Shown here in pieces: positions 39,961-51,269 of a stretch of 64,000 nucleotides of DNA; positions within the stretch are counted from its first letter, which is position 1; the number at the start of each line of letters is the position of its first letter. Below the pieces are notes generated by a model. It made no database searches. It saw nothing but the letters and a program-made list of their open reading frames with translations, and was not told the DNA's origin. The translations under genes and the position numbers were made by a program. Location of the stretch: assembly GCF_056746865.1 (NCBI RefSeq), contig NZ_CM163382.1; one strand, given 5' to 3'.

Positions 39961-40323
39961 GGGGCTGATTCTGGATTCGACGGGATTTGCGAAACCCAAG
40001 GTGCATGCCGAGGGGCGGTTGGCCTCGTAAAAAGCCGCAAAAAATAGTCGCAAACGACGAAAACTACGCTTTAGCAGCTTAATAACCTGCTTAGAGCCCT
40101 CTCTCCCTAGCCTCCGCTCTTAGGACGGGGATCAAGAGAGGTCAAACCCAAAAGAGATCGCGTGGAAGCCCTGCCTGGGGTTGAAGCGTTAAAACTTAAT
40201 CAGGCTAGTTTGTTAGTGGCGTGTCCGTCCGCAGCTGGCAAGCGAATGTAAAGACTGACTAAGCATGTAGTACCGAGGACGTAGGAATTTCGGACGCGGG
40301 TTCAACTCCCGCCAGCTCCACCA
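39961..40323 (+). ncRNA. ssrA: tmRNA (transfer-messenger RNA, 10Sa RNA)
   Basis: Starts GGGGCTGATTCTGGATTCGACGGG, contains tag-coding GCAAACGACGAAAACTACGCTTTAGCAGCTTAA and ends GGTTCAACTCCCGCCAGCTCCACCA; 363 nt. Confidence 0.97.
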
Positions 40324-40354
40324 AACATTCATTCATGATGCATCATGAACCTTA

Positions 40355-40390
40355 AAAAAGCCTGTAACTTCAACGAGTTGCAGGCTTTTT
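40355..40390 (+). terminator. ssrA intrinsic terminator
   Basis: aaaaaagcctgtaacttcaacgagttgcaggctttttt hairpin plus T-run. Confidence 0.75.
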
Positions 40391-40489
40391 TGTTGCATGT
40401 GTGGTCATGATCTCTGTATGAATCTTGACCTTTTGGCACCATGTTTAGCACCACGGTATCGTGGGGCTAAAAAAGCGTGGTGCTAAAAC

Positions 40490-41737
40490 ATGCCTAAGCA
40501 ACTGAAACCCTTAACAAATGTGGAGATCGCTGGCGCGAAGCCCCGTAGCACGGATTATGAGCTACGGGACGGTGAAGGCCTGTACTTGCTGGTTAAGACT
40601 TCAGGGAGGAAGGCCTGGCATTTCGAGTATTATCATCCCGTCACCAAAAAGCGCACCAAAACCAGCCTTGGCCCTTACCCGGTCGTTACACTGGCCATGG
40701 CTCGCGAAACTCGCACGAAATACAGACGACTGCTCTGGCAGGGCATCGATCCCCGTCAACACTTAGCAGGAATAGCCGAAGAAAAACGCCTCCAGAATGA
40801 ATGCACGCTGGAAAAAGTTGCGGAACAGTGGCTCAAAGAGAAGAAACGGACCAGCGACCTTAGCGAAGATCACGCCAAAGATGTCTGGCGCTCGCTGGAG
40901 ATGCACGTCTTCCCTTCTCTGGGCAGTACGCCCGTCACCGAGATCCGCCCGAAGATGCTCAAGGAACACCTCACCCCGCTGGAAGAACAGGGCATCCTCG
41001 AAACGCTGCGCCGGGTTATCTCACGGCTCAATGAAATCTTCCGCTTCGCCATCTCCGAAGAGCTTATCGAGTTTAACCCAGCAGACAACCTGGTCGCCCG
41101 CTTCAAGAAACCGAAAAAGCAGAACATGCCCGCCCTTCCCCCCAGCGAACTGGGCAGACTAATGTTGGCACTACAAAACGCCTCTATCCGCAAGGAAACA
41201 CGCTGCCTTATCGAATGGGAGCTACTGACCTGGGTTCGCCCCGGCGAAGCCGTTAGCGCCCGCTGGTGCGACATCGATATGAAAAAAGCGGAATGGCGTA
41301 TCCCTGACACCTTTATGAAGATGAACCGTTCACACACGGTGCCGCTCAGCAAACAGGCGCTGCGTGTTCTTCAGATCATGGAGCCCGTCAGCCGCCATCG
41401 TCCGTGGGTCTTCCCCAGCATCCGCAAACCGCTGGAGCACATGCACCAGCAGACCGCGAACGCCGCGCTTATCCGCATGGGGTTCGGCGGTGAGCTGGTC
41501 GCCCACGGCATGCGCAGCATCGCCAGAACGGCGGGCGCAGGTCATTTTCCCCGTGAAGTTCTGGAATCTGCACTGGCACACCAGAAAGAAGACGAGATCG
41601 AAGCGGCCTACAATCGCAGCGACTATCTGGAACAAAGGCGACCGCTCATGCAGTGGTGGGGAAACTACGTTGATGCCGCCAGACGGCAGGCATTGCTCGG
41701 TGAAGAAGAACCGCTGCGGATCGTGGAAGGAGAATAA
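40490..41737 (+). CDS. P4-type tyrosine integrase
   Basis: 415-aa ORF; clear similarity to recalled CP4-57 IntA (MxxQxKPLTxxEIxxAKP...NRSDYLEQRRPMMQWW), with HGMRSIAR and YNRSDY catalytic-region motifs. Confidence 0.92.
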   Translation: MPKQLKPLTNVEIAGAKPRSTDYELRDGEGLYLLVKTSGRKAWHFEYYHPVTKKRTKTSLGPYPVVTLAMARETRTKYRRLLWQGIDPRQHLAGIAEEKRLQNECTLEKVAEQWLKEKKRTSDLSEDHAKDVWRSLEMHVFPSLGSTPVTEIRPKMLKEHLTPLEEQGILETLRRVISRLNEIFRFAISEELIEFNPADNLVARFKKPKKQNMPALPPSELGRLMLALQNASIRKETRCLIEWELLTWVRPGEAVSARWCDIDMKKAEWRIPDTFMKMNRSHTVPLSKQALRVLQIMEPVSRHRPWVFPSIRKPLEHMHQQTANAALIRMGFGGELVAHGMRSIARTAGAGHFPREVLESALAHQKEDEIEAAYNRSDYLEQRRPLMQWWGNYVDAARRQALLGEEEPLRIVEGE

Positions 41738-41738
41738 T

Positions 41739-42383
41739 GTGACCAGTCCCATTCGTCAGAATCTGTTTGAACGGGAATGCGATATGCCGCTGCTGGAAGC
41801 GCGGCATCTCGCCCTTCTGCTTCTCGGCCTTGATGCTTCCCAACCTGCAAACGCCCTGCCGGAAGAACATCAGGAAAATTACCGTATCCTGCACGACGCC
41901 ATCAGTCGCACCATCAAAGCAACGGGCATGGTCAGCGCCCCGGCGAACAAACGCATGTTCTATGCCGATGAAATGTTCGCGCTGGCCTGGCGGCTTATTG
42001 ATGACGAACTCACGCCGCCAGAAATTAAGGCCCGGAGCCTGAAGGCAGTGATGAAACTGTCACGCAACAGCCGTGGCCGCAAGTGGCTGAAGACGCTCGG
42101 CGACGATGCGCTGCCGGATCTCACTGCTTCCACACAACCTTCCCTGCGTGGGATGCATAAGCGCGACAAAGCACGGGAGAATACTGCCAGGCTCTGCTGG
42201 TTACTGGTTCAGCTTCTGGTTGATGAGACTGACGGACGGTATGGCACGTCTGATAAACCGGCTTCGGATCGGATACTTCGGAAGCTGAAGGAGCTGGCGC
42301 AGGAGCGGGAATTACCGTCAGACGGGCTTGGGCGAGGGACGTTTTATGAGGTTTTGAAGATGGGAAGGGAGAAGGAAGTTTAG
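41739..42383 (+). CDS. hypothetical island protein (about 214 aa)
   Basis: In-frame GTG one codon after the integrase stop with GGAAGGAG 7 nt upstream; the longer ORF 41364..42383 overlaps the integrase and is trimmed. Confidence 0.5.
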   Translation: MTSPIRQNLFERECDMPLLEARHLALLLLGLDASQPANALPEEHQENYRILHDAISRTIKATGMVSAPANKRMFYADEMFALAWRLIDDELTPPEIKARSLKAVMKLSRNSRGRKWLKTLGDDALPDLTASTQPSLRGMHKRDKARENTARLCWLLVQLLVDETDGRYGTSDKPASDRILRKLKELAQERELPSDGLGRGTFYEVLKMGREKEV

Positions 42384-42732
42384 GTAATAACACTGCAGAT
42401 CGCACGTGAACACAGTGCCACTTTCCCTATGGAATGTGAAATTAATCGGTAATACCCCTCGAAAGAATGTGAACAGACACTCTCTTGCTTAACTGTTGAA
42501 ACTCTTCGAATTAAAGACAAGGTTCGCCATTTAATTATCTGACAGTTCGCCCCAGCACAACGTTAAAGTGATTTTTGATCAATCACCTACTCTGCTCTGG
42601 CAGAGCCAGAGCCGTTTTACTGACTAAAGCACAAGCTTCCAGCGAATGCACCTTTCCACACACCATAAGTCTTGTGTGATACCAGCACTGACGGTGTATG
42701 TTACATATCCTTAAAAAGTTCTCCAGACCGAC

Positions 42733-43905
42733 TTAGAGAACCTTAGACTGTTCTGGGAACCAGTTATTAATTATATGTCTTCGACAGACTTTAGATATTT
42801 CAAATACCTGTCGTGACACTAATGCACCATCAGGATGGCGCTGGTCAGGTATGTCATTTTCTATGTCATAAAAATTATGCGTTATTTCTGGGGGAAAGAA
42901 AACGTTTTTGTCTAAAGGCACGCTTGCATAGGGATTATAATACACATGCAAACCATCAAAATGAGTTTCCTTGTAGTCCCTTGTTCGGCACATTACAATA
43001 TCCGCGCCAACAACCTCATTGTTGTAGAATTGTCGCTTCGTAGTAACATAATGGTCAGGACCAAGTTTTCTCGTATGAGAACCTTCGTTCTTCATACCTT
43101 CATTGGCAATAAAAACATTCACATCAAGAGCTCGGAATCTCGTATATCGGACATATCGATCGACCCGACTCTGAACGATAGCCTTACCAAAAGTACCTGT
43201 CGTTGAAAACACGATAGCACTGATTTCTTTGTATGAGTCATTTGTAAAAATACCTAAAGGTATTTCAGTGTCTTCATTTTTTTTAATCGATAAAACCCTT
43301 CTTTGCCTACCATTTACTAAATCTCTCATCGTAGGTTCTTCAATGCCAAACAATACCCGGTTAATGATTGTATTATTCTGGGTTAAAGATAGATCTGAAT
43401 CAAATGGGGCCAATGCTAACACAAAAGGCTTACCGATTACATGTTCCATTGTTGAGTATGGGAACTTCTTACCATTAATTCCGGTAAAGAGATCGCGCTT
43501 ATCTTTAATTTTCCCAAGAAGTTTTAGCGTAGATTGATGCTTAAACTTAGCTTCACTGAAAATTTCACTGACTGGCGGTTTATGGGGCTTGTCAGAGACC
43601 ATAGCCTCTACGTTAAATTTATAACCTAATGGCGTGCTAACACAAAAATCAGGACTGTCTTTTGTATAGTCAACCGAATACCCCAAACGAATAAACATCT
43701 CATTTAGATATAATTCCCACATAGAAGAATTAAAGGTAGTCTGAAATTCGTTAATAAATTTAGTTTGTTCACCACTGCGTTCCAGTAATCCGCGTCCCCA
43801 TGATTGGATCACCGCCCTAACAGGAGCAAGTTTAGGATCTGTGTAGATTGTTTTAAAATTGTGATTTAGTTTATTTCTAGCTATTTTTGTTGAGAAGAGA
43901 TCCAT
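42733..43905 (-). CDS. hypothetical 390-aa protein, opposite strand, AT-rich
   Basis: Long uninterrupted ORF with good RBS (agaggtaaataATG); no family recognised. Confidence 0.7.
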   Translation of the reverse strand: MDLFSTKIARNKLNHNFKTIYTDPKLAPVRAVIQSWGRGLLERSGEQTKFINEFQTTFNSSMWELYLNEMFIRLGYSVDYTKDSPDFCVSTPLGYKFNVEAMVSDKPHKPPVSEIFSEAKFKHQSTLKLLGKIKDKRDLFTGINGKKFPYSTMEHVIGKPFVLALAPFDSDLSLTQNNTIINRVLFGIEEPTMRDLVNGRQRRVLSIKKNEDTEIPLGIFTNDSYKEISAIVFSTTGTFGKAIVQSRVDRYVRYTRFRALDVNVFIANEGMKNEGSHTRKLGPDHYVTTKRQFYNNEVVGADIVMCRTRDYKETHFDGLHVYYNPYASVPLDKNVFFPPEITHNFYDIENDIPDQRHPDGALVSRQVFEISKVCRRHIINNWFPEQSKVL

Positions 43906-44356
43906 TATTTACCTCTATAAACACTTTGTAAAACTAAACATGTGTATTTTACTGCGCTGATTGTCGAACATATGCTTCAAATTGTAATGCGGTATTCTAC
44001 ATCAGAAAAACCTCTTTTATATTTTCCTCATTAAATTTATTTACACCGAAAAATAGCCGCATGAATCATGTCTGAACAGATGAACTTCTCTAATATAGCC
44101 TAAATACCTACGACTGCGCTATAAAGAGGGAACCTCAAGCACTAATAGCACAAAGAAAATATGCGAACACAAATTTGACGCGAAACTATGACTTAGATAG
44201 GATGAATCTAGGTGGTGATGGTCACCTGGCGCCTGTCTCGCAAAGCAATAGCCCATCGTTCAGAAGTATACCAAATACTTGGCCGCCATCCATTATGACG
44301 CTGCCCGGTTAGCAGGCTATCGGTATCCAAAGCGTTACTTTATTGGAGGTACAGCC

Positions 44357-44896
44357 ATGTCTGACTATTCATACCTAAGCATTCTTAAAACGTGCGCTAA
44401 AAAGCTGGCTCGCATTCAGAAAATTAAGCTTTCCAAAGCACTCGAAATCGTTGCCCGTGACGCGAAATTCACCAGCTACCATGAGCTGTCCGAAGTCGCA
44501 AAACGTGCCCCGCTAGAACAACGGCTGGTTTTCGCTGCAATAGGCGAAGATACTCAAGAGGATGTGATTTATCGCGATGAGATTTTTTATGCCATAGACC
44601 GCGAGGTGGAAGATATGCTCTCCGGCGACATAGCGGAAACAAACGCCTATGGTTTTAGCATAGAGAATCTGGAGGCAACAAGCATAAATTACGACCCAAA
44701 GCGAGGCATTCTGGTCGTCCAAGTCATATTTGATTATCAGGGTGAACAAGATTCTGAACGCCCTTTCTCTGGTTCGTCCTTTGAAATTGTTGCGAAAATG
44801 GAGCTACTTCTTCGCGACAATGTATGGAGCCTCGTAGAAAATAGTCTGGAATTGACCTCTGTTAATTCAAATGTCGATAATGACTGGTACGATTAA
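44357..44896 (+). CDS. hypothetical acidic 179-aa protein
   Basis: ATG at 44357 preceded by GGAGG; ORF 44279..44896 trimmed. Confidence 0.6.
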   Translation: MSDYSYLSILKTCAKKLARIQKIKLSKALEIVARDAKFTSYHELSEVAKRAPLEQRLVFAAIGEDTQEDVIYRDEIFYAIDREVEDMLSGDIAETNAYGFSIENLEATSINYDPKRGILVVQVIFDYQGEQDSERPFSGSSFEIVAKMELLLRDNVWSLVENSLELTSVNSNVDNDWYD

Positions 44897-45497
44897 GACA
44901 TATAACAGTAGGAGGCATTCCAAATTTTTGGCGGAGTGCCTTTTTAGTAACTATATCCAGATGAAATCATCGAGTTATCACATGAGCATCCATCTTACGT
45001 GTACTCAAAACACTTATGGGCTTCTAAATTCAGGAAGTCCCTACTCCGCTTGCTGGCGCTTCTTTGAGCCTCGTGGCGTCCATATACACCAATTAGGCCA
45101 GACCATGCTCAAACAACTTGTCGAGAAATGCTATGTGCAAAAACCACTGGACATGTTCTCGATGACAGCAGGCAAACTAACTGGGCTTGATCAATCTGGG
45201 CCTAAACTGGCTTCCATCATATGCAGAGGGATAGAGCAGGCCAAAGATGTACAACTCGGAGAGTTACTTTTTGCCTGCGGTATCTATGGTGTGGAAGAAG
45301 AAGAAGCCTGGTTACTAGCTAAAAGATTCAGTAATCTTGAGGCCTTGTATGGTGCCAGCATAGATTCTCTGATGAGTTATAACCTTCTTAATGAGGCAGT
45401 AGCTGTCAATACGTATAACTTCTTCCGTCATCCGCTCAATGTGTCGGCTCTTAACGAGTTACAAACAGAAGGTGGATTGAAGGTGCGCCATGGATAG
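44871..45497 (+). CDS. protein with NAD-dependent DNA ligase-like C-terminal helix-hairpin-helix region (start uncertain; possible remnant)
   Basis: C-terminal ~100 aa (GPKLASIICRGIEQAKDVQLGELLFACGIYGV...LEALYGASIDSLMSYNLLNEAVAVNTYNFFRHPLNVSALNELQTEGGLKV) aligns by eye to the LigA HhH region; alternative starts TTG 44928 (AGGAGG upstream) or ATG 44961. Confidence 0.5.
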   Translation: MSIMTGTIKTYNSRRHSKFLAECLFSNYIQMKSSSYHMSIHLTCTQNTYGLLNSGSPYSACWRFFEPRGVHIHQLGQTMLKQLVEKCYVQKPLDMFSMTAGKLTGLDQSGPKLASIICRGIEQAKDVQLGELLFACGIYGVEEEEAWLLAKRFSNLEALYGASIDSLMSYNLLNEAVAVNTYNFFRHPLNVSALNELQTEGGLKVRHG

Positions 45498-45682
45498 AAT
45501 TAACACCAAGGCTGTGCCCGGCCTTTTATCTATGCAACGTAGCCGATGACAGTTAACGGTGAGACAGCAACACCTGTTGTAACATGTTTGTACTCGTGCA
45601 TTGCCATCCGTAGGCCTAAACATATCTGACTCCCACAGGATGGGGATAAAATACAACATTTGCATTTTCAATTTGTTATCGA

Positions 45683-45732
45683 AAAATCATTAGTCCTGAT
45701 GGGAAATAATATCTTCCCGGACTAATGATTTT
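45683..45732. promoter_or_regulatory. 50-bp region with perfect 14-bp inverted repeat upstream of alpA (operator or terminator)
   Basis: aaaatcattagtcc (45683-45696) and ggactaatgatttt (45719-45732) are exact reverse complements; followed by repeated tatccgg motifs. Confidence 0.45.
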
Positions 45733-45831
45733 CTATCCGGACTCCACTTTTTTATCCGGGCCTATACCTCCCCTCATCGTTCCGCGCTATAACCGCTCCG
45801 ACACTCTGTTCCCGTCCCGTGAGGTGCAATC

Positions 45832-46047
45832 ATGAAAACCAGTGCAGACAGTAACGATGCTTTTCCCGAAAGCGGCAACGTGCGTATGCGGCAGGTAGTC
45901 CAGTTTCTGGCGATGAGTGAATCGTCGGTTTACCGCCTGATTAAAAACACCGACTTTCCCCGCCCCGTCCACCTCTCTTCCCGACTGGTGGTCTTCGATG
46001 CTGCTGAAATCCGTCAGTGGCAACAGCGCCGCGCCGCCATCCGTTAA
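45832..46047 (+). CDS. alpA: AlpA-family phage transcriptional regulator (HTH)
   Basis: 71-aa ORF with RMRQVVQFLAMSESSVYRLIKNTDFPRPV helix-turn-helix typical of AlpA. Confidence 0.85.
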   Translation: MKTSADSNDAFPESGNVRMRQVVQFLAMSESSVYRLIKNTDFPRPVHLSSRLVVFDAAEIRQWQQRRAAIR

Positions 46048-46082
46048 TCCACGCTCAGGGATGAGCCGACTGATACCCCGTC

Positions 46083-48152
46083 ATGAAACGCGCCCCTTTT
46101 CTCTGTAAGCAGTCTCCGGACCGCACGCTCGAAGTGGTGATCCTTGCCGGAAGCCTGGCATGGGAGACCTCACACGTGTGGCGAAAAGATCCCGACCGGG
46201 AAGATGATGTTCCCCCGATGGTACTCGGCCCGGATGAACTGGCCGATCTGAGCAATCTGACCATTATCAGGCCCGACACGCTCTACGTCCGGGTACTTCG
46301 CACCGGCGATATCAGTGAAGAAGAGCTGCTGAAAATTGCCGTAAAACTGGCGCACGCGGGCGTGCAGATGGCCCGGCTGATGACCCCTGACGGTGAGTTA
46401 CTGGAGAACTGGACCGGACAGCTTGAACGCCTGCGACAGGAAAGACCTTCTGACATCCTGCCGGATCACTTCCGCCTCGATGAAGAAGCACTGTGGTTTG
46501 ATAAGCTCACCGAACGGCGCGACGGTGAAAGCGATGTCCAGCCCCAGCGCATCTGTTCCCCTCTGCGCGTCACTGCCATCACCTGCGACAGCCATGACGG
46601 CAGCTATGGCCGCCTGCTGGAATGGCACACCACCACCGGGCAATTGCGGCGCTGGGCCATGCCGATGGCGATGCTCAGCGGCAACGGCGAGGAGCTGAGG
46701 CGCATTCTGCTGGAGAACGGCCTGACCTATATCTCCACCCGCCCTGCCCTGCGCAGTCTGCTGTGCGAATATATCTCGCGGTCACTCCCCGGACGCCGGG
46801 TCACCTGCGCGGAGAAAACCGGCTGGCACAACGGCGTGTACGTGCTGCCGGATGAGGTTATCGGTCCCGATGGCGACAACGTCATTCTCCAGGGCAGCCA
46901 CTACCTGACTGGCGGCTTTGCACAATCCGGTACGCTGGCAGAGTGGCAGGAGCAGGTCGCCGCGCTCTGTGCAGGCAATTCACGGCTGGTCTTTGCCGTC
47001 TGCTGTGCGCTGGCCGCCCCGCTGCTGCGCCTGACAGGAACGGGCGGCGGAGGCTTTCATCTGCGCGGTGAGTCCACTGACGGTAAGACCACGGTGATGA
47101 AAGTGGCCGCTTCCGTCTGTGGCGGGACGGATTACTGGCACTCCTGGCGGGCCACCGGGAATGCGCTGGAAGGAATTGCCAGCCGCCACAACGATGCCCT
47201 GCTGCCACTTGATGAACTGCGCGAAGTGGACCCGCGTGAGGCCGGGATGATTGCCTATATGCTGGCGAACGGACAGGGCAAGGGGCGCGCCCGCACCGAT
47301 GGCGAAGTGCGTAACCGCAGGCACTGGACGCTGCTGCTGTTCTCCACCGGGGAGCTGTCGCTGGCGGAACACACCGAATGCGCCGGGGAGCGCCTCTACG
47401 CCGGGATGGACGTGCGCATGGTACAAATCCCCAGCGACACCGGGCAGCATGGTTCGTTTGAGCAGTTGCACGGGTTTGCCAGCGGCCAGCAGTTCGCCGA
47501 TACTCTCTGCGACCGGGTGGCCCGCTTCCACGGCACCGCCTTTCGTGCCTGGCTGGCCTTCCTCACCAGCGACCTGGACGCCAGCACCACGCTGGCGAGA
47601 GAGTTACTTCGCCGCTACCAGACCGCCCTGATGCCGGACAACGCCGGAAACCAGGTGCAGCGCATCGTGGCCCGTTTTGCCCTGCTGGCGGTGGCCGGGG
47701 AGATAGCGACACTGAACGGTATCACGGGCTGGCAGGAAGGCTCGGCGTATGGGGCGGTGCAGATCTGCCTTCACGCCTGGCTGAACGAGCGCGGCCATAT
47801 TGCCAACCAGGAAGATGAAGGCGTGCTGGCGCAGATCAAGCGGTTCATTACCGCGCACCAGTACAGCCGCTTTGCCTCGTGGGATGGCCCGGACCGCCCG
47901 CTGAATATGGCAGGCTTTCGCCGGGTGGAAAAAGATCCGCTGACGGGCGAGGAACACACGCTGTTCTTCATCCTGCCTGAGGGCTGGCGGGAAATATGCC
48001 GGGGATTCAGTCCTGCCAGAGCGGCCAGATTATGCCAGGAAGCGGAATGCCTGCTGCCCGGCAGCGACGGGAAATACCAGTCGCAGGTTCGCCTGCCGGA
48101 GATCGGCAAAGCCAGAGTCTACCGCCTCACCTCCCGCATCCTCAGTATCTGA
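46083..48152 (+). CDS. P4 alpha-like primase/helicase-type replication protein (P-loop NTPase C-terminal half)
   Basis: 689-aa ORF, Walker A GESTDGKTTV, position after alpA as in P4-like and PICI elements; GC-rich unlike the cargo. Confidence 0.75.
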   Translation: MKRAPFLCKQSPDRTLEVVILAGSLAWETSHVWRKDPDREDDVPPMVLGPDELADLSNLTIIRPDTLYVRVLRTGDISEEELLKIAVKLAHAGVQMARLMTPDGELLENWTGQLERLRQERPSDILPDHFRLDEEALWFDKLTERRDGESDVQPQRICSPLRVTAITCDSHDGSYGRLLEWHTTTGQLRRWAMPMAMLSGNGEELRRILLENGLTYISTRPALRSLLCEYISRSLPGRRVTCAEKTGWHNGVYVLPDEVIGPDGDNVILQGSHYLTGGFAQSGTLAEWQEQVAALCAGNSRLVFAVCCALAAPLLRLTGTGGGGFHLRGESTDGKTTVMKVAASVCGGTDYWHSWRATGNALEGIASRHNDALLPLDELREVDPREAGMIAYMLANGQGKGRARTDGEVRNRRHWTLLLFSTGELSLAEHTECAGERLYAGMDVRMVQIPSDTGQHGSFEQLHGFASGQQFADTLCDRVARFHGTAFRAWLAFLTSDLDASTTLARELLRRYQTALMPDNAGNQVQRIVARFALLAVAGEIATLNGITGWQEGSAYGAVQICLHAWLNERGHIANQEDEGVLAQIKRFITAHQYSRFASWDGPDRPLNMAGFRRVEKDPLTGEEHTLFFILPEGWREICRGFSPARAARLCQEAECLLPGSDGKYQSQVRLPEIGKARVYRLTSRILSI

Positions 48153-48824: not shown

Positions 48825-49811
48825 ATGGTTAAAATTCACATTTTAGATGCCGGACATGGTGATTGCTTGTTAGTAGACTGCGATGGTGTCAAATTGTTAA
48901 TTGACGCTGGCCCAAGTACATTTAGGTATAGAAAAAAAATTTCAGCCAAGTTAGCTGAACTTCTGAATGGCGAGTCTGTTGATATCGCTTTTGTAACTCA
49001 CAATGATGATGACCATATCGGTGGTTTCAAATACCTAATTGAAAATAAAATAAACATCAAGAGATTTGTATTCAATAGTTTATCTAACATTAAACATGTA
49101 ATAAAGAATTCAAGCAATAAAATATCGACCAAACAAGATATAAATCTTGATAGAATAGTGAAAGATGGAAGTTTTGTCTTTTCGACACTAACTTCAGATG
49201 ACTCTCCTATTTTAATCAGAAATATAAAAATAACACCTATTACTCCTTCAAAAAATATCCTTTTAAAATATTTAGAACAACAAGAGCGTAAAAACACAGA
49301 AATTAAAATATCATCTTCATCTGAAAAATATAGTATTAAAGAAGCACTGCAGTTGCTAAGCAATGGAAATGATATGTTTGTAAAGGATCCATCGGCAACT
49401 AATAAAACCAGTTTATCATTTATGATTGAGTATGGGAATTTTTGTGGATTATTCCTTGGTGATGCACACGAAGAAGACATCTACTCATATATGGCTAATC
49501 ATTGTGCCAATAGAAAAATATCATTTAACGTTGTTAAGTTAGCACATCATGGTAGTGAAAAAAACACGAGTTCACGGTTATTGAAGTTAATTGGTACAAC
49601 AGAATATATCATATGTGCGAATAAAACCAAGCATAATCATCCAAATAATTTAACTCTTGCAAGAATTTTAATACATGAACAAGAACCTAAAATTCATATG
49701 AGTAGCAGCAATCAGGAGATAATAAATTTACTCAATCAAATAAATTTATTAGGCTTCGGCATTACTGCAACCCATTCTGAAAATGGAGTTAATACTTTAA
49801 TCTATGAGTAG
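48825..49811 (+). CDS. metallo-beta-lactamase-fold protein, ComEC-like (putative nuclease/hydrolase)
   Basis: 328-aa ORF: ILDAGHGDCLLVDCDGVKLLIDAG start, THNDDDHIGG metal-binding-like motif, AHHGSEKNTS motif; very AT-rich. Confidence 0.7.
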   Translation: MVKIHILDAGHGDCLLVDCDGVKLLIDAGPSTFRYRKKISAKLAELLNGESVDIAFVTHNDDDHIGGFKYLIENKINIKRFVFNSLSNIKHVIKNSSNKISTKQDINLDRIVKDGSFVFSTLTSDDSPILIRNIKITPITPSKNILLKYLEQQERKNTEIKISSSSEKYSIKEALQLLSNGNDMFVKDPSATNKTSLSFMIEYGNFCGLFLGDAHEEDIYSYMANHCANRKISFNVVKLAHHGSEKNTSSRLLKLIGTTEYIICANKTKHNHPNNLTLARILIHEQEPKIHMSSSNQEIINLLNQINLLGFGITATHSENGVNTLIYE

Positions 49812-51269
49812 AAAAAATGCTGTAAAAATAAAAGTCAATGATTCGGAATCAAGTGGCTATTTTTTCAAAGCAAGCTCCAAGGATGATTCTTTTGTAATTT
49901 CATCCAAGCACGGCCTTTGTTCTAGACAGTCAGATTGTGAAGAATTTCTTGATAATGTTCAGAATTGTTGCCGTTTATGCACTCAAGATTTAAATATTGA
50001 CAATATATCTTTTGAAATTGAAGGAAATAAGAAGCTAAAGCCAATAAGTTATTTCAGTCTTGAAAACAAAGATATTGTCATCACCAAAGTGGATGGGGTA
50101 TCTAATTATCCTTTAAGGATAGGAAAGATAGAAAAAGAAAAGTATTATACTTATGGTTACAAGAGTAAATGTGATAAGCCTGGCAGAATTTTATTAAATG
50201 AGCCAGATTTATTAGATGGGATTTGTTATTTCAATATATGTTCCGATGCAACACCTGAGTTGATTGAGAAAAGTGAAGAATATTATGGAATTTCAGGTTC
50301 ATTAGTTTTTGATTCTCCAGAAAAAGATGTTTTAACCGCACATGCAGTAATAACAACTAATGAAACCAATAATGACTTAGGTTCAGAAATATTACATGAT
50401 ATTGATTTCAAAGAAATTAATAACTTTTTCGGCTGTGAAGTATTCTTGGGTAAAAAACTCCAATTTCAACTAGATGATACTTTTAGTAAAAATTTTTCAA
50501 AGATTGGAGAAGTGCTTGTTAGCGACAAACTCCAAATTGAAATATTTATTTCATCTTATAAAGGTATACCATATTTTAATTTGACACCAATTGCTGATGC
50601 ATTAATTCAAAGTAAGTTTTATTATGTTTTTGGAAATGTTAGTAGAAGTGATCATATAAATATAATCGCTGCATCAAACATTATACTCAACAAATCTCAT
50701 TTAGAACCAGCTAATAAATTATTAACTAGCAAATTAACTGAATCGATATTATCAGCACCTCATATTTATTCCACTAGCATTGATGATAATAATTATCATC
50801 ATATTCATTTTAAACAAATGACTTCTGGTGATATTGAGCTCATAATATCATGTTATGGTGGAGGAGATGATCTTCCTAAAGATATAAATGGCACTTTAAC
50901 TGAGTTGTTACACAATATAAATACTTATAACTTAAATAAAAATTCAATAATTGAGAGGTCTTTTCTTAATCAAAAATTTACAGATGCACAATGCGAAATT
51001 TTATATGAGATTTTTTTGAGCGATTAACTGATTCAATCGACAGAATTTCATTATTGCATGTAATTCCTTTGGACCATTATTTAATAAAAGATAAATCAGA
51101 AATTAAAAATGAAATTATTACCATTGTTGAGAAAGCGTGTCAAGAATTAGACAGCAACATTTTAGATTATCTTGAGCATGGAATATCTATAAATCTATTA
51201 ATATTTCCAACTAATAATAAAGATGAATTATCAGGGTTAATGCAAAGGTTGATAAATAATTATGAATGA
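49804..51269 (+). CDS. protein with trypsin-like serine protease-type motifs; reading frame interrupted at a T7 run (ORFs 49804..51027 and 51054..51269 probably one gene)
   Basis: Start overlaps the MBL gene stop by 8 nt (ATGAGTAG); motifs SSKHGLC, NKDIVITKV, GISGSLVF; frame 1 stops at 51027 while frame 0 stays open from the T7 run (51011-51017) to 51269 and has no ATG or RBS of its own. Confidence 0.6.

What the first reader, a model, noticed from the sequence alone, without database searches (positions are those of the whole stretch)
49804..50320. Trypsin-like catalytic-triad signature in the middle gene of the operon
The N-terminal ~170 residues contain, in the canonical order and with plausible spacing, SSKHGLC (compare TAAHC), NKDIVITKV (compare NNDITLLKL, catalytic Asp) and GISGSLVF (compare GDSGGP, catalytic Ser) at roughly residues 36, 90 and 165. 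A protease in a helicase/nuclease operon would fit an effector or activating role. The remaining ~300 residues match nothing I recognise.
Basis: partly seen in the sequence, partly recalled or inferred. Interest (0 to 1): 0.6.

Follow-up and report, generated by a model that had tools for sequence, protein, structure and literature searches.

The report
Protease domain of a Hachiman-MBL defence gene

Summary

The operon is MBL pro-nuclease (48825-49811), then protease-HamA, then HamB helicase. This is Hachiman-MBL / HamMAB (Tuck et al., Science 2025; Huang et al., bioRxiv 2025; PDB 9WH1). Our H36 aligns with the mutated catalytic H38 of Klebsiella trypsin-HamA.

The "unrecognised ~300 residues" are a divergent DUF1837/HamA domain. 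The upstream MBL has two low-confidence loops, each with an invariant Ile-Ser (I100-S101, I162-S163). These are the likely cleavage sites, by analogy with mapped Ile|Ser sites in related MBLs.

Three points go beyond the finding:
- The 407-aa ORF is truncated. Homologues are 482-497 aa, and the frame continues at -1 after a T7 run (51011-51017) to 51269.
- hamB is likewise split at an A7 run (52448-52454).
- Both shifts are present in 123-126 of the 131 complete E. coli genomes that carry the locus. The system is therefore probably inactive here.

Verdict: a new, divergent and decayed member of a known kind.

The parts
48825..49811 (+). hamM: MBL-fold (ComEC-like) pro-nuclease, 328 aa. Its stop overlaps the hamA start by 8 nt.
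   Evidence: PADLOC MBL-type models LmuA 2.9e-61, RTasMBL 1.3e-48, Avs1a 2.4e-35. NCBIfam Avs1a 3.1e-42, below the curated cut-off. AF2 model pLDDT 83.5. Best PDB fold match is the ComEC beta-lactamase-like domain 9ic4, E 5e-15, followed by Pce.
49095..49154 (+). MBL insertion loop 1 (residues 91-110) with invariant I100-S101 (codons 49122-49127). Predicted protease cleavage site.
   Evidence: The residue blocks 91-100 and 101-110 have mean pLDDT 45 and 62, and 93-100 is below 50. I100, S101, Q104 and D105 are 38/38 in homologues. Mapped Ile|Ser cleavage sites in related MBLs.
49275..49334 (+). MBL insertion loop 2 (residues 151-170) with I162-S163 (codons 49308-49313). Predicted second cleavage site.
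   Evidence: Mean pLDDT 63-66. I162 is 38/38 and S163 is 37/38.
49804..50448 (+). Trypsin-like (chymotrypsin-fold) serine protease domain of HamA, residues 1 to about 215. Catalytic H36 (49909-49911), D90 (50071-50073), S164 (50293-50295).
49918..49980 (+). Cys cluster C39-x5-C45-x9-C55-C56-x2-C59, inserted between the catalytic His and Asp. A possible structural Zn site.
   Evidence: C39 and C45 are 23/23; C56 and C59 are 22/23. Mean pLDDT of residues 41-60 is 57-58. Neither paper's main text mentions zinc or cysteine in this domain.
50449..51269 (+). Divergent DUF1837/HamA domain (residues about 216-488). It is read in frame 1 up to the T7 run and in the -1 frame from there to the stop at 51267-51269.
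   Evidence: The family profile matches 9wh1_A residues 307-522 (i-Evalue 1.1e-08). One homologue is named DUF1837 by NCBI. Pfam HamA hits 1/21 members weakly. No PADLOC HamA hit.
51011..51017 (+). T7 run in hamA, the frameshift site. The annotated ORF stops at 51027. Adding one T gives a 488-aa protein colinear with homologues.
   Evidence: The identical sequence is in 123 of 131 complete E. coli genomes.
51262..52464 (+). hamB 5' part (400 aa: N-terminal domain plus RecA1; GKS at 163, DEAH at 255).
   Evidence: PADLOC HamB1 1e-89, profile positions 4-400 of 845..
52448..52454 (+). A7 run in hamB, the frameshift site (in-frame A_AAA_AAG). Adding one A gives an uninterrupted 841-aa HamB.
   Evidence: The rebuilt HamB matches 9wh1_B in one stretch, 6-831 vs 6-844, E 1.5e-94. 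The identical sequence is in 126 of 131 genomes.
52455..53786 (+). hamB 3' part (RecA2 plus C-terminal domain), annotated as a separate ORF from the ATG at 52503.
   Evidence: PADLOC HamB1 2.6e-92, profile positions 413-842 of 845. RefSeq annotates it as 'helicase-related protein'.

Best explanation
The gene is hamA of a three-gene Hachiman-MBL (HamMAB) anti-phage operon: hamM (MBL pro-nuclease), then protease-hamA, then hamB (SF2 helicase).

Its first ~215 residues are a chymotrypsin-fold serine protease with triad H36/D90/S164. The rest is a DUF1837/HamA domain that serves as the adaptor to HamB rather than as a nuclease.

Mechanism, inferred by homology to tested systems:
1. ATP-bound HamB holds the protease in check.
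2. DNA ends or damage produced during infection stimulate ATP hydrolysis by HamB.
3. The protease is released and oligomerises.
4. It cuts the two gating loops of the MBL protein, most likely after I100 and I162.
5. This unmasks a non-specific DNase that kills or arrests the infected cell.

In this E. coli lineage hamA and hamB each lack one base in a homopolymer run (T7 at 51011-51017; A7 at 52448-52454). As encoded, the system is most likely a decaying, non-functional copy.

What is shown here: the fold, triad conservation, homology, operon architecture, the frameshifts and their fixation. What is inferred: activity, substrate sites, regulation and loss of function.
For: Protease identity:
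- Triad conserved 23/23.
- Weak Trypsin_2 hits in 5/21 family members.
- A weak SplD alignment pairs our Asp motif (kDIaiiKV) with SplD's DIAVVQV and places our Ser motif at SplD's GSSGSP.

System identity:
- The family profile hits 9wh1_A over both domains (4.6e-18), with H36 aligned to the tested H38.
- Rebuilt HamB matches 9wh1_B at 1.5e-94, and PADLOC HamB1 hits both halves colinearly.
- The MBL matches PADLOC and NCBIfam defence MBL models and the ComEC fold.
- Homologous loci in Vibrio, Aeromonas, Morganella and a metagenome have the same order: MBL (328-329 aa), HamA (482-488 aa), HamB (840-847 aa), all intact.

Substrate:
- Two low-pLDDT loops each carry an invariant Ile-Ser.
- Experimentally mapped Ile|Ser or post-Ile cleavage sites exist in PflHamM and VcMBL.

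Decay:
- Both frameshifts are present in 123-126 of 131 complete genomes.
- The two divergent alleles examined come from indel-ridden assemblies (15 gap openings in 5.2 kb in one; fragmented CDSs in both).
- IS1 or IS5 insertions lie inside the matched region in some strains.
- No intact E. coli-type allele turned up in a 5.8-billion-protein search.
- There is no stimulatory RNA structure downstream of either site (z -0.62 and +0.22).
Against: - No Pfam, PADLOC or NCBIfam model recognises this HamA at any threshold tried. Family assignment therefore rests on profile-to-PDB homology, fold and gene context.
- The model is of moderate confidence (pLDDT 72.8; residues 149-157 are below 50). I could not access coordinates, so triad geometry was not measured.
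- The cleavage sites are predicted by analogy only. The closest solved relative (Klebsiella) cuts Ser|Ser in KSS motifs, not after Ile.
- Loss of function is inferred. Both frameshift sites are canonical in-frame X_XXY_YYZ slippery heptamers (T_TTT_TTG, A_AAA_AAG), so some full-length protein could be made. The locus is ~100% identical in all carriers, so selection cannot be tested.
Confidence: 0.87

Rival explanations
1. The system is alive. The two -1 frameshifts are bypassed by ribosomal or transcriptional slippage on T_TTT_TTG and A_AAA_AAG. This would give low, tuned levels of full-length HamA and HamB from a system that is toxic when over-expressed. Alternatively, they act as reversible homopolymer switches (phase variation).
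For: Both sites are in-frame X_XXY_YYZ heptamers, and both need the same -1 shift. The MBL gene and every other codon of hamA and hamB are intact in high-quality genomes. Expression of HamMAB/Hachiman-MBL is reported to be toxic. A Morganella locus shows a T7/T8 length difference in the same part of hamB.
Against: A one-base deletion in a homopolymer run creates such a heptamer automatically. No downstream stimulatory structure was found. Runs of 7 are short for efficient transcriptional slippage (general knowledge). Intact relatives need no shift. Run-length variants in E. coli were seen only in error-prone assemblies. IS insertions in some strains suggest relaxed selection.
Confidence: 0.1
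2. The domain is an active protease, but its target is not the neighbouring MBL protein. It might cleave a phage protein, HamB or itself.
For: No cleavage assay exists for this clade. Its HamA is very divergent from the tested Klebsiella and Pseudomonas proteins.
Against: The MBL gene is always immediately upstream and translationally coupled. The MBL has two flexible insertions with invariant Ile-Ser, like proven substrates. In tested systems the protease did not cut other proteins.
Confidence: 0.04
3. The motifs are a chance resemblance, or the domain is a catalytically dead pseudo-protease used only as a scaffold.
For: No Pfam hit for the E. coli protein, even at E<=10.
Against: H, D and S are invariant in 23/23 divergent relatives. 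The fold matches are strong. The homologous Klebsiella and Pseudomonas domains need their catalytic residues for defence.
Confidence: 0.02

Closest known systems
Klebsiella pneumoniae Hachiman-MBL (trypsin-HamAB + MBL; PDB 9WH1/9WHK/9WHU; Huang et al., bioRxiv 10.1101/2025.09.03.673762)
   Same: Same three-gene architecture. [quoted passage not shown] Catalytic H38 aligns with H36, and the Cys-rich insert after the His is shared. HamB is colinear (E 1.5e-94).
   Different: HamA is 528 aa versus 488 aa. The Klebsiella type is recognised by PADLOC HamA models (P0166, 7.5e-32), whereas ours is not. The Klebsiella MBL is cut Ser|Ser in two KSS motifs, whereas ours has invariant (Q/K)-Ile-Ser at the two loops. 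Our hamA and hamB are frameshifted.
Pseudomonas fluorescens HamMAB (Tuck et al., Science 2025, PMC12799240)
   Same: A protease-HamA that has lost nuclease activity activates a gated MBL pro-nuclease by two cuts, each after a conserved Ile. HamB, DNA and ATP hydrolysis act as the trigger.
   Different: PflHamM is about 42 kDa with sites I118 and I218, 100 residues apart. Ours is 328 aa with I100 and I162, 62 apart, a spacing close to the 63 residues between the Klebsiella sites S128 and S191.
MBL-protease modules of AVAST/STAND systems (Avs1a; VcAvs2-VcMBL; PMC12642450)
   Same: Same MBL family (NCBIfam/PADLOC Avs1a hits). Cleavage mapped to Ile133|Ser134 and Ile232|Ser233. Relatives of our protease domain occur in proteins of 1533-1733 aa and in LmuA- and Avs-like proteins.
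   Different: The sensor is a STAND NTPase that recognises phage proteins, not a HamB helicase that senses DNA.
Canonical Hachiman HamAB (E. coli ECOR31; PDB 8VX9; PMC12278908)
   Same: HamB-type SF2 helicase partnered with a DUF1837 protein.
   Different: Canonical HamA is itself the nuclease (D-GExK motif) and has no protease domain or MBL partner. Our HamB is only distantly related to 8vx9_B (E 1.8e-08, one short stretch).

Membership tests
Chymotrypsin-fold (PA clan, S1/Trypsin_2-like) serine protease | Double beta-barrel chymotrypsin fold | tested here: met
Chymotrypsin-fold (PA clan, S1/Trypsin_2-like) serine protease | His, Asp, Ser in that order, conserved, in TxxH / D(I/L)A(I/L) / GxSG contexts | tested here: met
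   H36, D90 and S164 are 23/23 across divergent relatives, with G162 22/23 and G165 23/23.
Chymotrypsin-fold (PA clan, S1/Trypsin_2-like) serine protease | The three residues form a triad in space | not testable with these tools
S164 lies in a region of pLDDT 59-63.
Chymotrypsin-fold (PA clan, S1/Trypsin_2-like) serine protease | Significant match to the Pfam Trypsin_2 (PF13365) model | tested here: inconclusive
   No hit for the E. coli protein, even at E<=10. Five of 21 homologues hit at E<=0.1, best 2.2e-3.
Hachiman-MBL / HamMAB defence system | Gene order: MBL hydrolase, then protease-HamA fusion, then HamB helicase, in one operon | tested here: met
   The same order is found in L004, L005, L007 and L009.
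Hachiman-MBL / HamMAB defence system | C-terminal DUF1837/HamA domain homologous to that of trypsin-HamA | tested here: met
   Family profile versus 9wh1_A residues 307-522, i-Evalue 1.1e-08. Weak Pfam HamA hit in 1/21. No PADLOC HamA hit.
Hachiman-MBL / HamMAB defence system | Loss of the D-GExK nuclease motif in the HamA domain | tested here: inconclusive
   No invariant Asp and no GExK-like motif appear among the conserved C-terminal columns. The conserved set is E313, H320, H332/H333/H335, S349 and G353. No alignment to a canonical HamA could be made with these tools.
Hachiman-MBL / HamMAB defence system | MBL partner with two insertion loops carrying conserved cleavage residues | tested here: met
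   The two lowest-confidence stretches, residues 91-110 and 151-170, each hold an invariant Ile-Ser. The core matches ComEC and Pce, which are described as lacking these loops.
Hachiman-MBL / HamMAB defence system | HamB-type SF2 helicase with Walker A and DEAH motifs | tested here: met
   PADLOC HamB1 1e-89 and 2.6e-92. GKS at 163 and DEAH at 255. 9wh1_B at 1.5e-94.
Hachiman-MBL / HamMAB defence system | Intact reading frames for all three genes (needed for a functional member) | tested here: not met
   hamA and hamB each need a -1 shift or a one-base insertion. The shifts are present in 123-126 of 131 complete genomes.
Hachiman-MBL / HamMAB defence system | Protease-dependent activation of the DNase, and anti-phage defence | not testable with these tools
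   Shown only for Klebsiella and Pseudomonas homologues.

The most novel reading that the evidence does not exclude
The two same-direction (-1) frameshifts at in-frame slippery heptamers (T_TTT_TTG in hamA, A_AAA_AAG in hamB) may not be decay. They could be a way of running a self-toxic abortive-infection system at a very low level, or in a switchable state, by ribosomal or transcriptional slippage or by homopolymer phase variation. That would make this a recoding- or contingency-regulated defence locus in E. coli. A smaller open point is that the near-invariant four-Cys insert in the protease domain, not discussed in the published work, could be a Zn or redox regulatory site.
Probability: 0.1. 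Interest if true: 0.55.

Novelty: new member of a known kind. Interest (0 to 1): 0.27.

Why it matters
The finding therefore adds annotation, not a new principle.

- It identifies what RefSeq annotates as 'hypothetical protein' / 'ComEC family' / 'DEAD box helicase' / 'helicase-related protein' in 131 complete E. coli genomes as a frameshifted Hachiman-MBL system.
- It defines a divergent HamA clade that current Pfam, PADLOC and NCBIfam models miss.
- It predicts the clade's cleavage sites (I100|S101 and I162|S163).
- Anyone testing this allele must first repair two homopolymer frameshifts.

Tried and rejected
- Family libraries. Pfam, PADLOC and NCBIfam scans of the 407-aa and rebuilt 488-aa HamA found nothing. 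Identification needed a family profile against PDB plus fold search.
- Programmed frameshifting. I looked for downstream RNA structure at both sites and found none above shuffled controls (z -0.62 and +0.22). A stem that includes the hamB site itself (z -2.18) is not in the position of a known stimulator.
- Intact E. coli alleles. I looked for them in complete genomes. Eight genomes at the hamA site and five at the hamB site differ. The two I examined (SCU-313, SCU-482) are from assemblies with fragmented CDSs, and SCU-313 has 15 gap openings in 5.2 kb. I rejected these as sequencing error.
- The Morganella 'truncated' homologue. P0003 (378 aa) looked like a second decayed HamA. Translation of L009 shows the ORF is intact from an upstream ATG, so this was a gene-calling artefact.
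- Cleavage motif. I considered the KSS motif of the Klebsiella system. It is absent here, and the conserved dipeptide is Ile-Ser.
- Triad geometry. It could not be measured because model coordinates are not exposed.
Full report
**The observation.** SSKHGLC is at residues 33-39, NKDIVITKV at 88-96 and GISGSLVF at 162-169. This puts H36, D90 and S164 at nt 49909-49911, 50071-50073 and 50293-50295, all inside the reported interval. The region is a 28-36% GC insert in a ~50% GC window.

**The ORF is not the whole gene.** After the stop at 51025-51027, the -1 frame is open from 51009 to a stop at 51267-51269, which overlaps the ATG of the next gene. I joined the two frames at the T7 run (51011-51017) and searched with the resulting 488-aa protein.
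- The search returned 21 proteins. Apart from the identical E. coli 407-aa product and one mis-called Morganella entry, they are 482-497 aa and cover 97-100% of the rebuilt query at 37-48% identity.
- Adding one T to the run gives a single 488-codon frame.

**The downstream helicase is split in the same way.** ORFs 51262-52464 and 52503-53786 match the two halves of one PADLOC HamB1 profile (positions 4-400 and 413-842 of 845; E 1e-89 and 2.6e-92).
- The break is at an A7 run (52448-52454), in the codons GAA AAA AAG.
- Adding one A gives an uninterrupted 841-aa protein.
- That protein matches PDB 9wh1_B in one stretch, 6-831 versus 6-844, E 1.5e-94.

**Is it a protease?** Pfam finds nothing in the E. 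coli protein, even at E<=10. Scanned one by one, 5 of 21 homologues touch Trypsin_2 at E<=0.1 and one touches HamA.
- Conservation is strong. In the 21-sequence alignment G162, S164 and G165 are invariant, and H36 and D90 are conserved in at least 90%.
- A profile of the N-terminal 222 residues was searched against 1.84 billion 50%-identity representatives. It found only 31 proteins at E<=1e-3.
- In 23 of their N-terminal domains H36, D90, S164, G18 and G165 are 23/23. That set includes proteins of 1533 and 1733 aa and 521-aa Klebsiella-type HamAs.
- An AlphaFold2 model of residues 1-222 has pLDDT 72.8 and pTM 0.78 and is almost all beta.
- Foldseek against PDB gave 976 hits at E<=1e-3. All 50 listed are chymotrypsin-fold proteases: Esp, Umb1, astrovirus protease, RsgI9 S1C and coronavirus 3CLpro, with TM 0.5-0.6.
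- I could not measure triad geometry because coordinates are not exposed.

**What system is it?** A profile of the full-length family hits PDB 9wh1_A at E 4.6e-18 in two stretches. 9wh1_A is 528 aa and is deposited as 'Anti-bacteriophage protein A/HamA C-terminal domain-containing protein'.
- The first stretch covers profile positions 5-173 of our family alignment; the second covers 280-483.
- 9WH1 is the Klebsiella pneumoniae trypsin-HamAB complex.
- In the alignment, its ...TAKHSICK... His is H38. This is the residue mutated as the protease-dead control, and it pairs with our H36.
- Its DVAILVL and GNSGAG motifs pair with our D90 and S164 motifs.

Three papers describe the system: Tuck et al., Science 2025 (PMC12799240); Huang et al., bioRxiv 10.1101/2025.09.03.673762; and PMC12642450. 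They report the following.
[quoted passage not shown] The HamA nuclease motif D-GExK is lost.
- HamB senses DNA, and ATP hydrolysis relieves the inhibition.
- The protease cuts two gating loops of the MBL protein, which unmasks a non-specific DNase and causes abortive infection.
- Mutating the protease, MBL or helicase active sites abolishes defence.

Our locus has this layout. The MBL gene at 48825-49811 matches PADLOC MBL-type LmuA, RTasMBL and Avs1a models and NCBIfam Avs1a. Its stop overlaps the hamA start. The same three genes, all intact, occur in a metagenome contig, Vibrio splendidus, Aeromonas veronii and Morganella morganii: MBL 328-329 aa, HamA 482-488 aa, HamB 840-847 aa.

**Likely substrate sites.** I aligned 38 MBL homologues of 44-53% identity.
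- They show two invariant Ile-Ser dipeptides: (Q/K/H)-I100-S101-x-x-Q-D and (Q/K)-I162-S163.
- In the AF2 model (pLDDT 83.5, pTM 0.87) these lie in the two lowest-confidence stretches. The 10-residue blocks spanning residues 91-110 average pLDDT 45 and 62, and those spanning 151-170 average 63 and 66.
- The ordered core matches the ComEC beta-lactamase-like domain (9ic4, E 5e-15) and Pce best. The published work uses these same comparators and describes them as lacking the loops.
- Mapped cleavage sites are after I118 and I218 in PflHamM, at Ile133|Ser134 and Ile232|Ser233 in VcMBL, and at Ser|Ser in KSS motifs in the Klebsiella MBL.

I therefore predict cleavage after I100 and I162. This clade combines Klebsiella-like loop spacing (62 versus 63 residues) with an Ile P1 residue. 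That is inference, not a measurement.

**State of the E. coli copy.** The 5.2-kb operon is present in 133 of 5426 complete E. coli genomes, always on the chromosome, and in 132 of them at >=99% identity.
- I queried 80-nt windows around each run. In both cases 131 genomes matched.
- The T7 version is identical in 123 of these and the A7 version in 126.
- The two divergent records I opened (SCU-313, SCU-482) come from assemblies with fragmented CDSs, and SCU-313 has 15 gap openings across the 5.2-kb operon. I treat them as assembly errors.
- No intact E. coli-type HamA appeared among 5.8 billion protein clusters.
- Some strains carry IS1 or IS5 inside the matched region.
- The 81 residues lost from the annotated HamA include the position aligned to Klebsiella Y439. 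My count from the alignment pairs Y439 with our S411. Y439 is one of three HamA-HamB interface residues whose joint mutation abolished defence.

Together this points to decay by two homopolymer deletions (T8 to T7, A8 to A7).

The caveat is that both sites are in-frame X_XXY_YYZ heptamers and need the same -1 shift, so slippage would restore exactly the ancestral proteins. However, a deletion in a homopolymer creates such heptamers automatically. No downstream structure stands out (z -0.62 and +0.22). Intact relatives need no shift. I give the slippage or phase-variation reading about 10%.

**How far from known.** The protease-MBL-Hachiman mechanism is published, so the principle is known. The following are specific to this locus:
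- A divergent HamA clade, with only 31 representative clusters for the protease subfamily, that is invisible to Pfam, PADLOC and NCBIfam.
- The Ile-Ser sites in short loops.
- A near-invariant Cys cluster (C39, C45, C56, C59) between the catalytic His and Asp. It is shared with the Klebsiella protein, and neither paper's main text mentions zinc or cysteine in this domain.
- The fixed double frameshift.

**Verdict.** This is a new (decayed) member of a known kind, of modest interest.

Noticed in passing
window 42733-43905 (-): The 390-aa protein matches the PADLOC PD-T7-5 model at E 2.6e-136. It is a second defence gene in the same island, annotated 'hypothetical protein' in RefSeq.
   Followed up: partly
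window 57917-59170 (+): The DUF3883 protein matches PADLOC PD-T4-1 at E 1.7e-204. It lies beyond a block of higher-GC sorbitol-type PTS and oxidoreductase genes (54781-57674), so defence genes flank a metabolic cassette.
   Followed up: partly
window ~40000-48152: Upstream of the operon RefSeq annotates an integrase, an AlpA-family regulator and a DUF927 protein (46083-48152, 63% GC), which looks like a satellite/integrative-island backbone. The Hachiman-MBL operon sits as low-GC cargo right after DUF927. The Morganella locus L009 also has an integrase and AlpA nearby.
   Followed up: no
window 53941-54420 (-): A convergent 159-aa HTH protein directly downstream of hamB has a weak PADLOC capH hit (4e-05). 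It could be the island repressor or a regulator of the defence operon.
   Followed up: no
window 49918-49980 (HamA residues 39-59): A C-x5-C-x9-CC-x2-C cluster sits inside the protease domain. It is 22-23/23 conserved across divergent relatives, including the Klebsiella type, and is poorly modelled (pLDDT 57-58). It may be a Zn site, and neither paper's main text mentions zinc or cysteine here.
   Followed up: partly
L010 2560-2680 versus L009 (Morganella morganii): One Morganella assembly has hamB split into 398 + 444 aa by a T7 run, where another has T8 and an intact 842-aa gene. This is ~20 nt upstream of the E. coli site. Homopolymer frameshifts in this AT-rich gene recur, or else this is a draft-assembly error.
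   Followed up: partly
E. coli records NZ_CP043406.1 and NZ_CP095510.1 (hits H1, H2): The match to the operon is broken into two pieces, with an IS1 and an IS5 transposase annotated inside it. This indicates further disruption of the locus in some strains. The insertion points were not mapped.
   Followed up: no
L005 1-4767 (Vibrio splendidus): The intact Vibrio Hachiman-MBL operon lies next to a reverse transcriptase (RVT_1) and a PRTase-CE gene, which looks like a retron/DRT-like neighbour. The homologue therefore also sits in a defence island.
   Followed up: no
window 44279-44896 (+): The 205-aa ORF gives a marginal PADLOC HamA1 hit (E 0.004 over 67 residues). This is probably spurious.
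   Followed up: no
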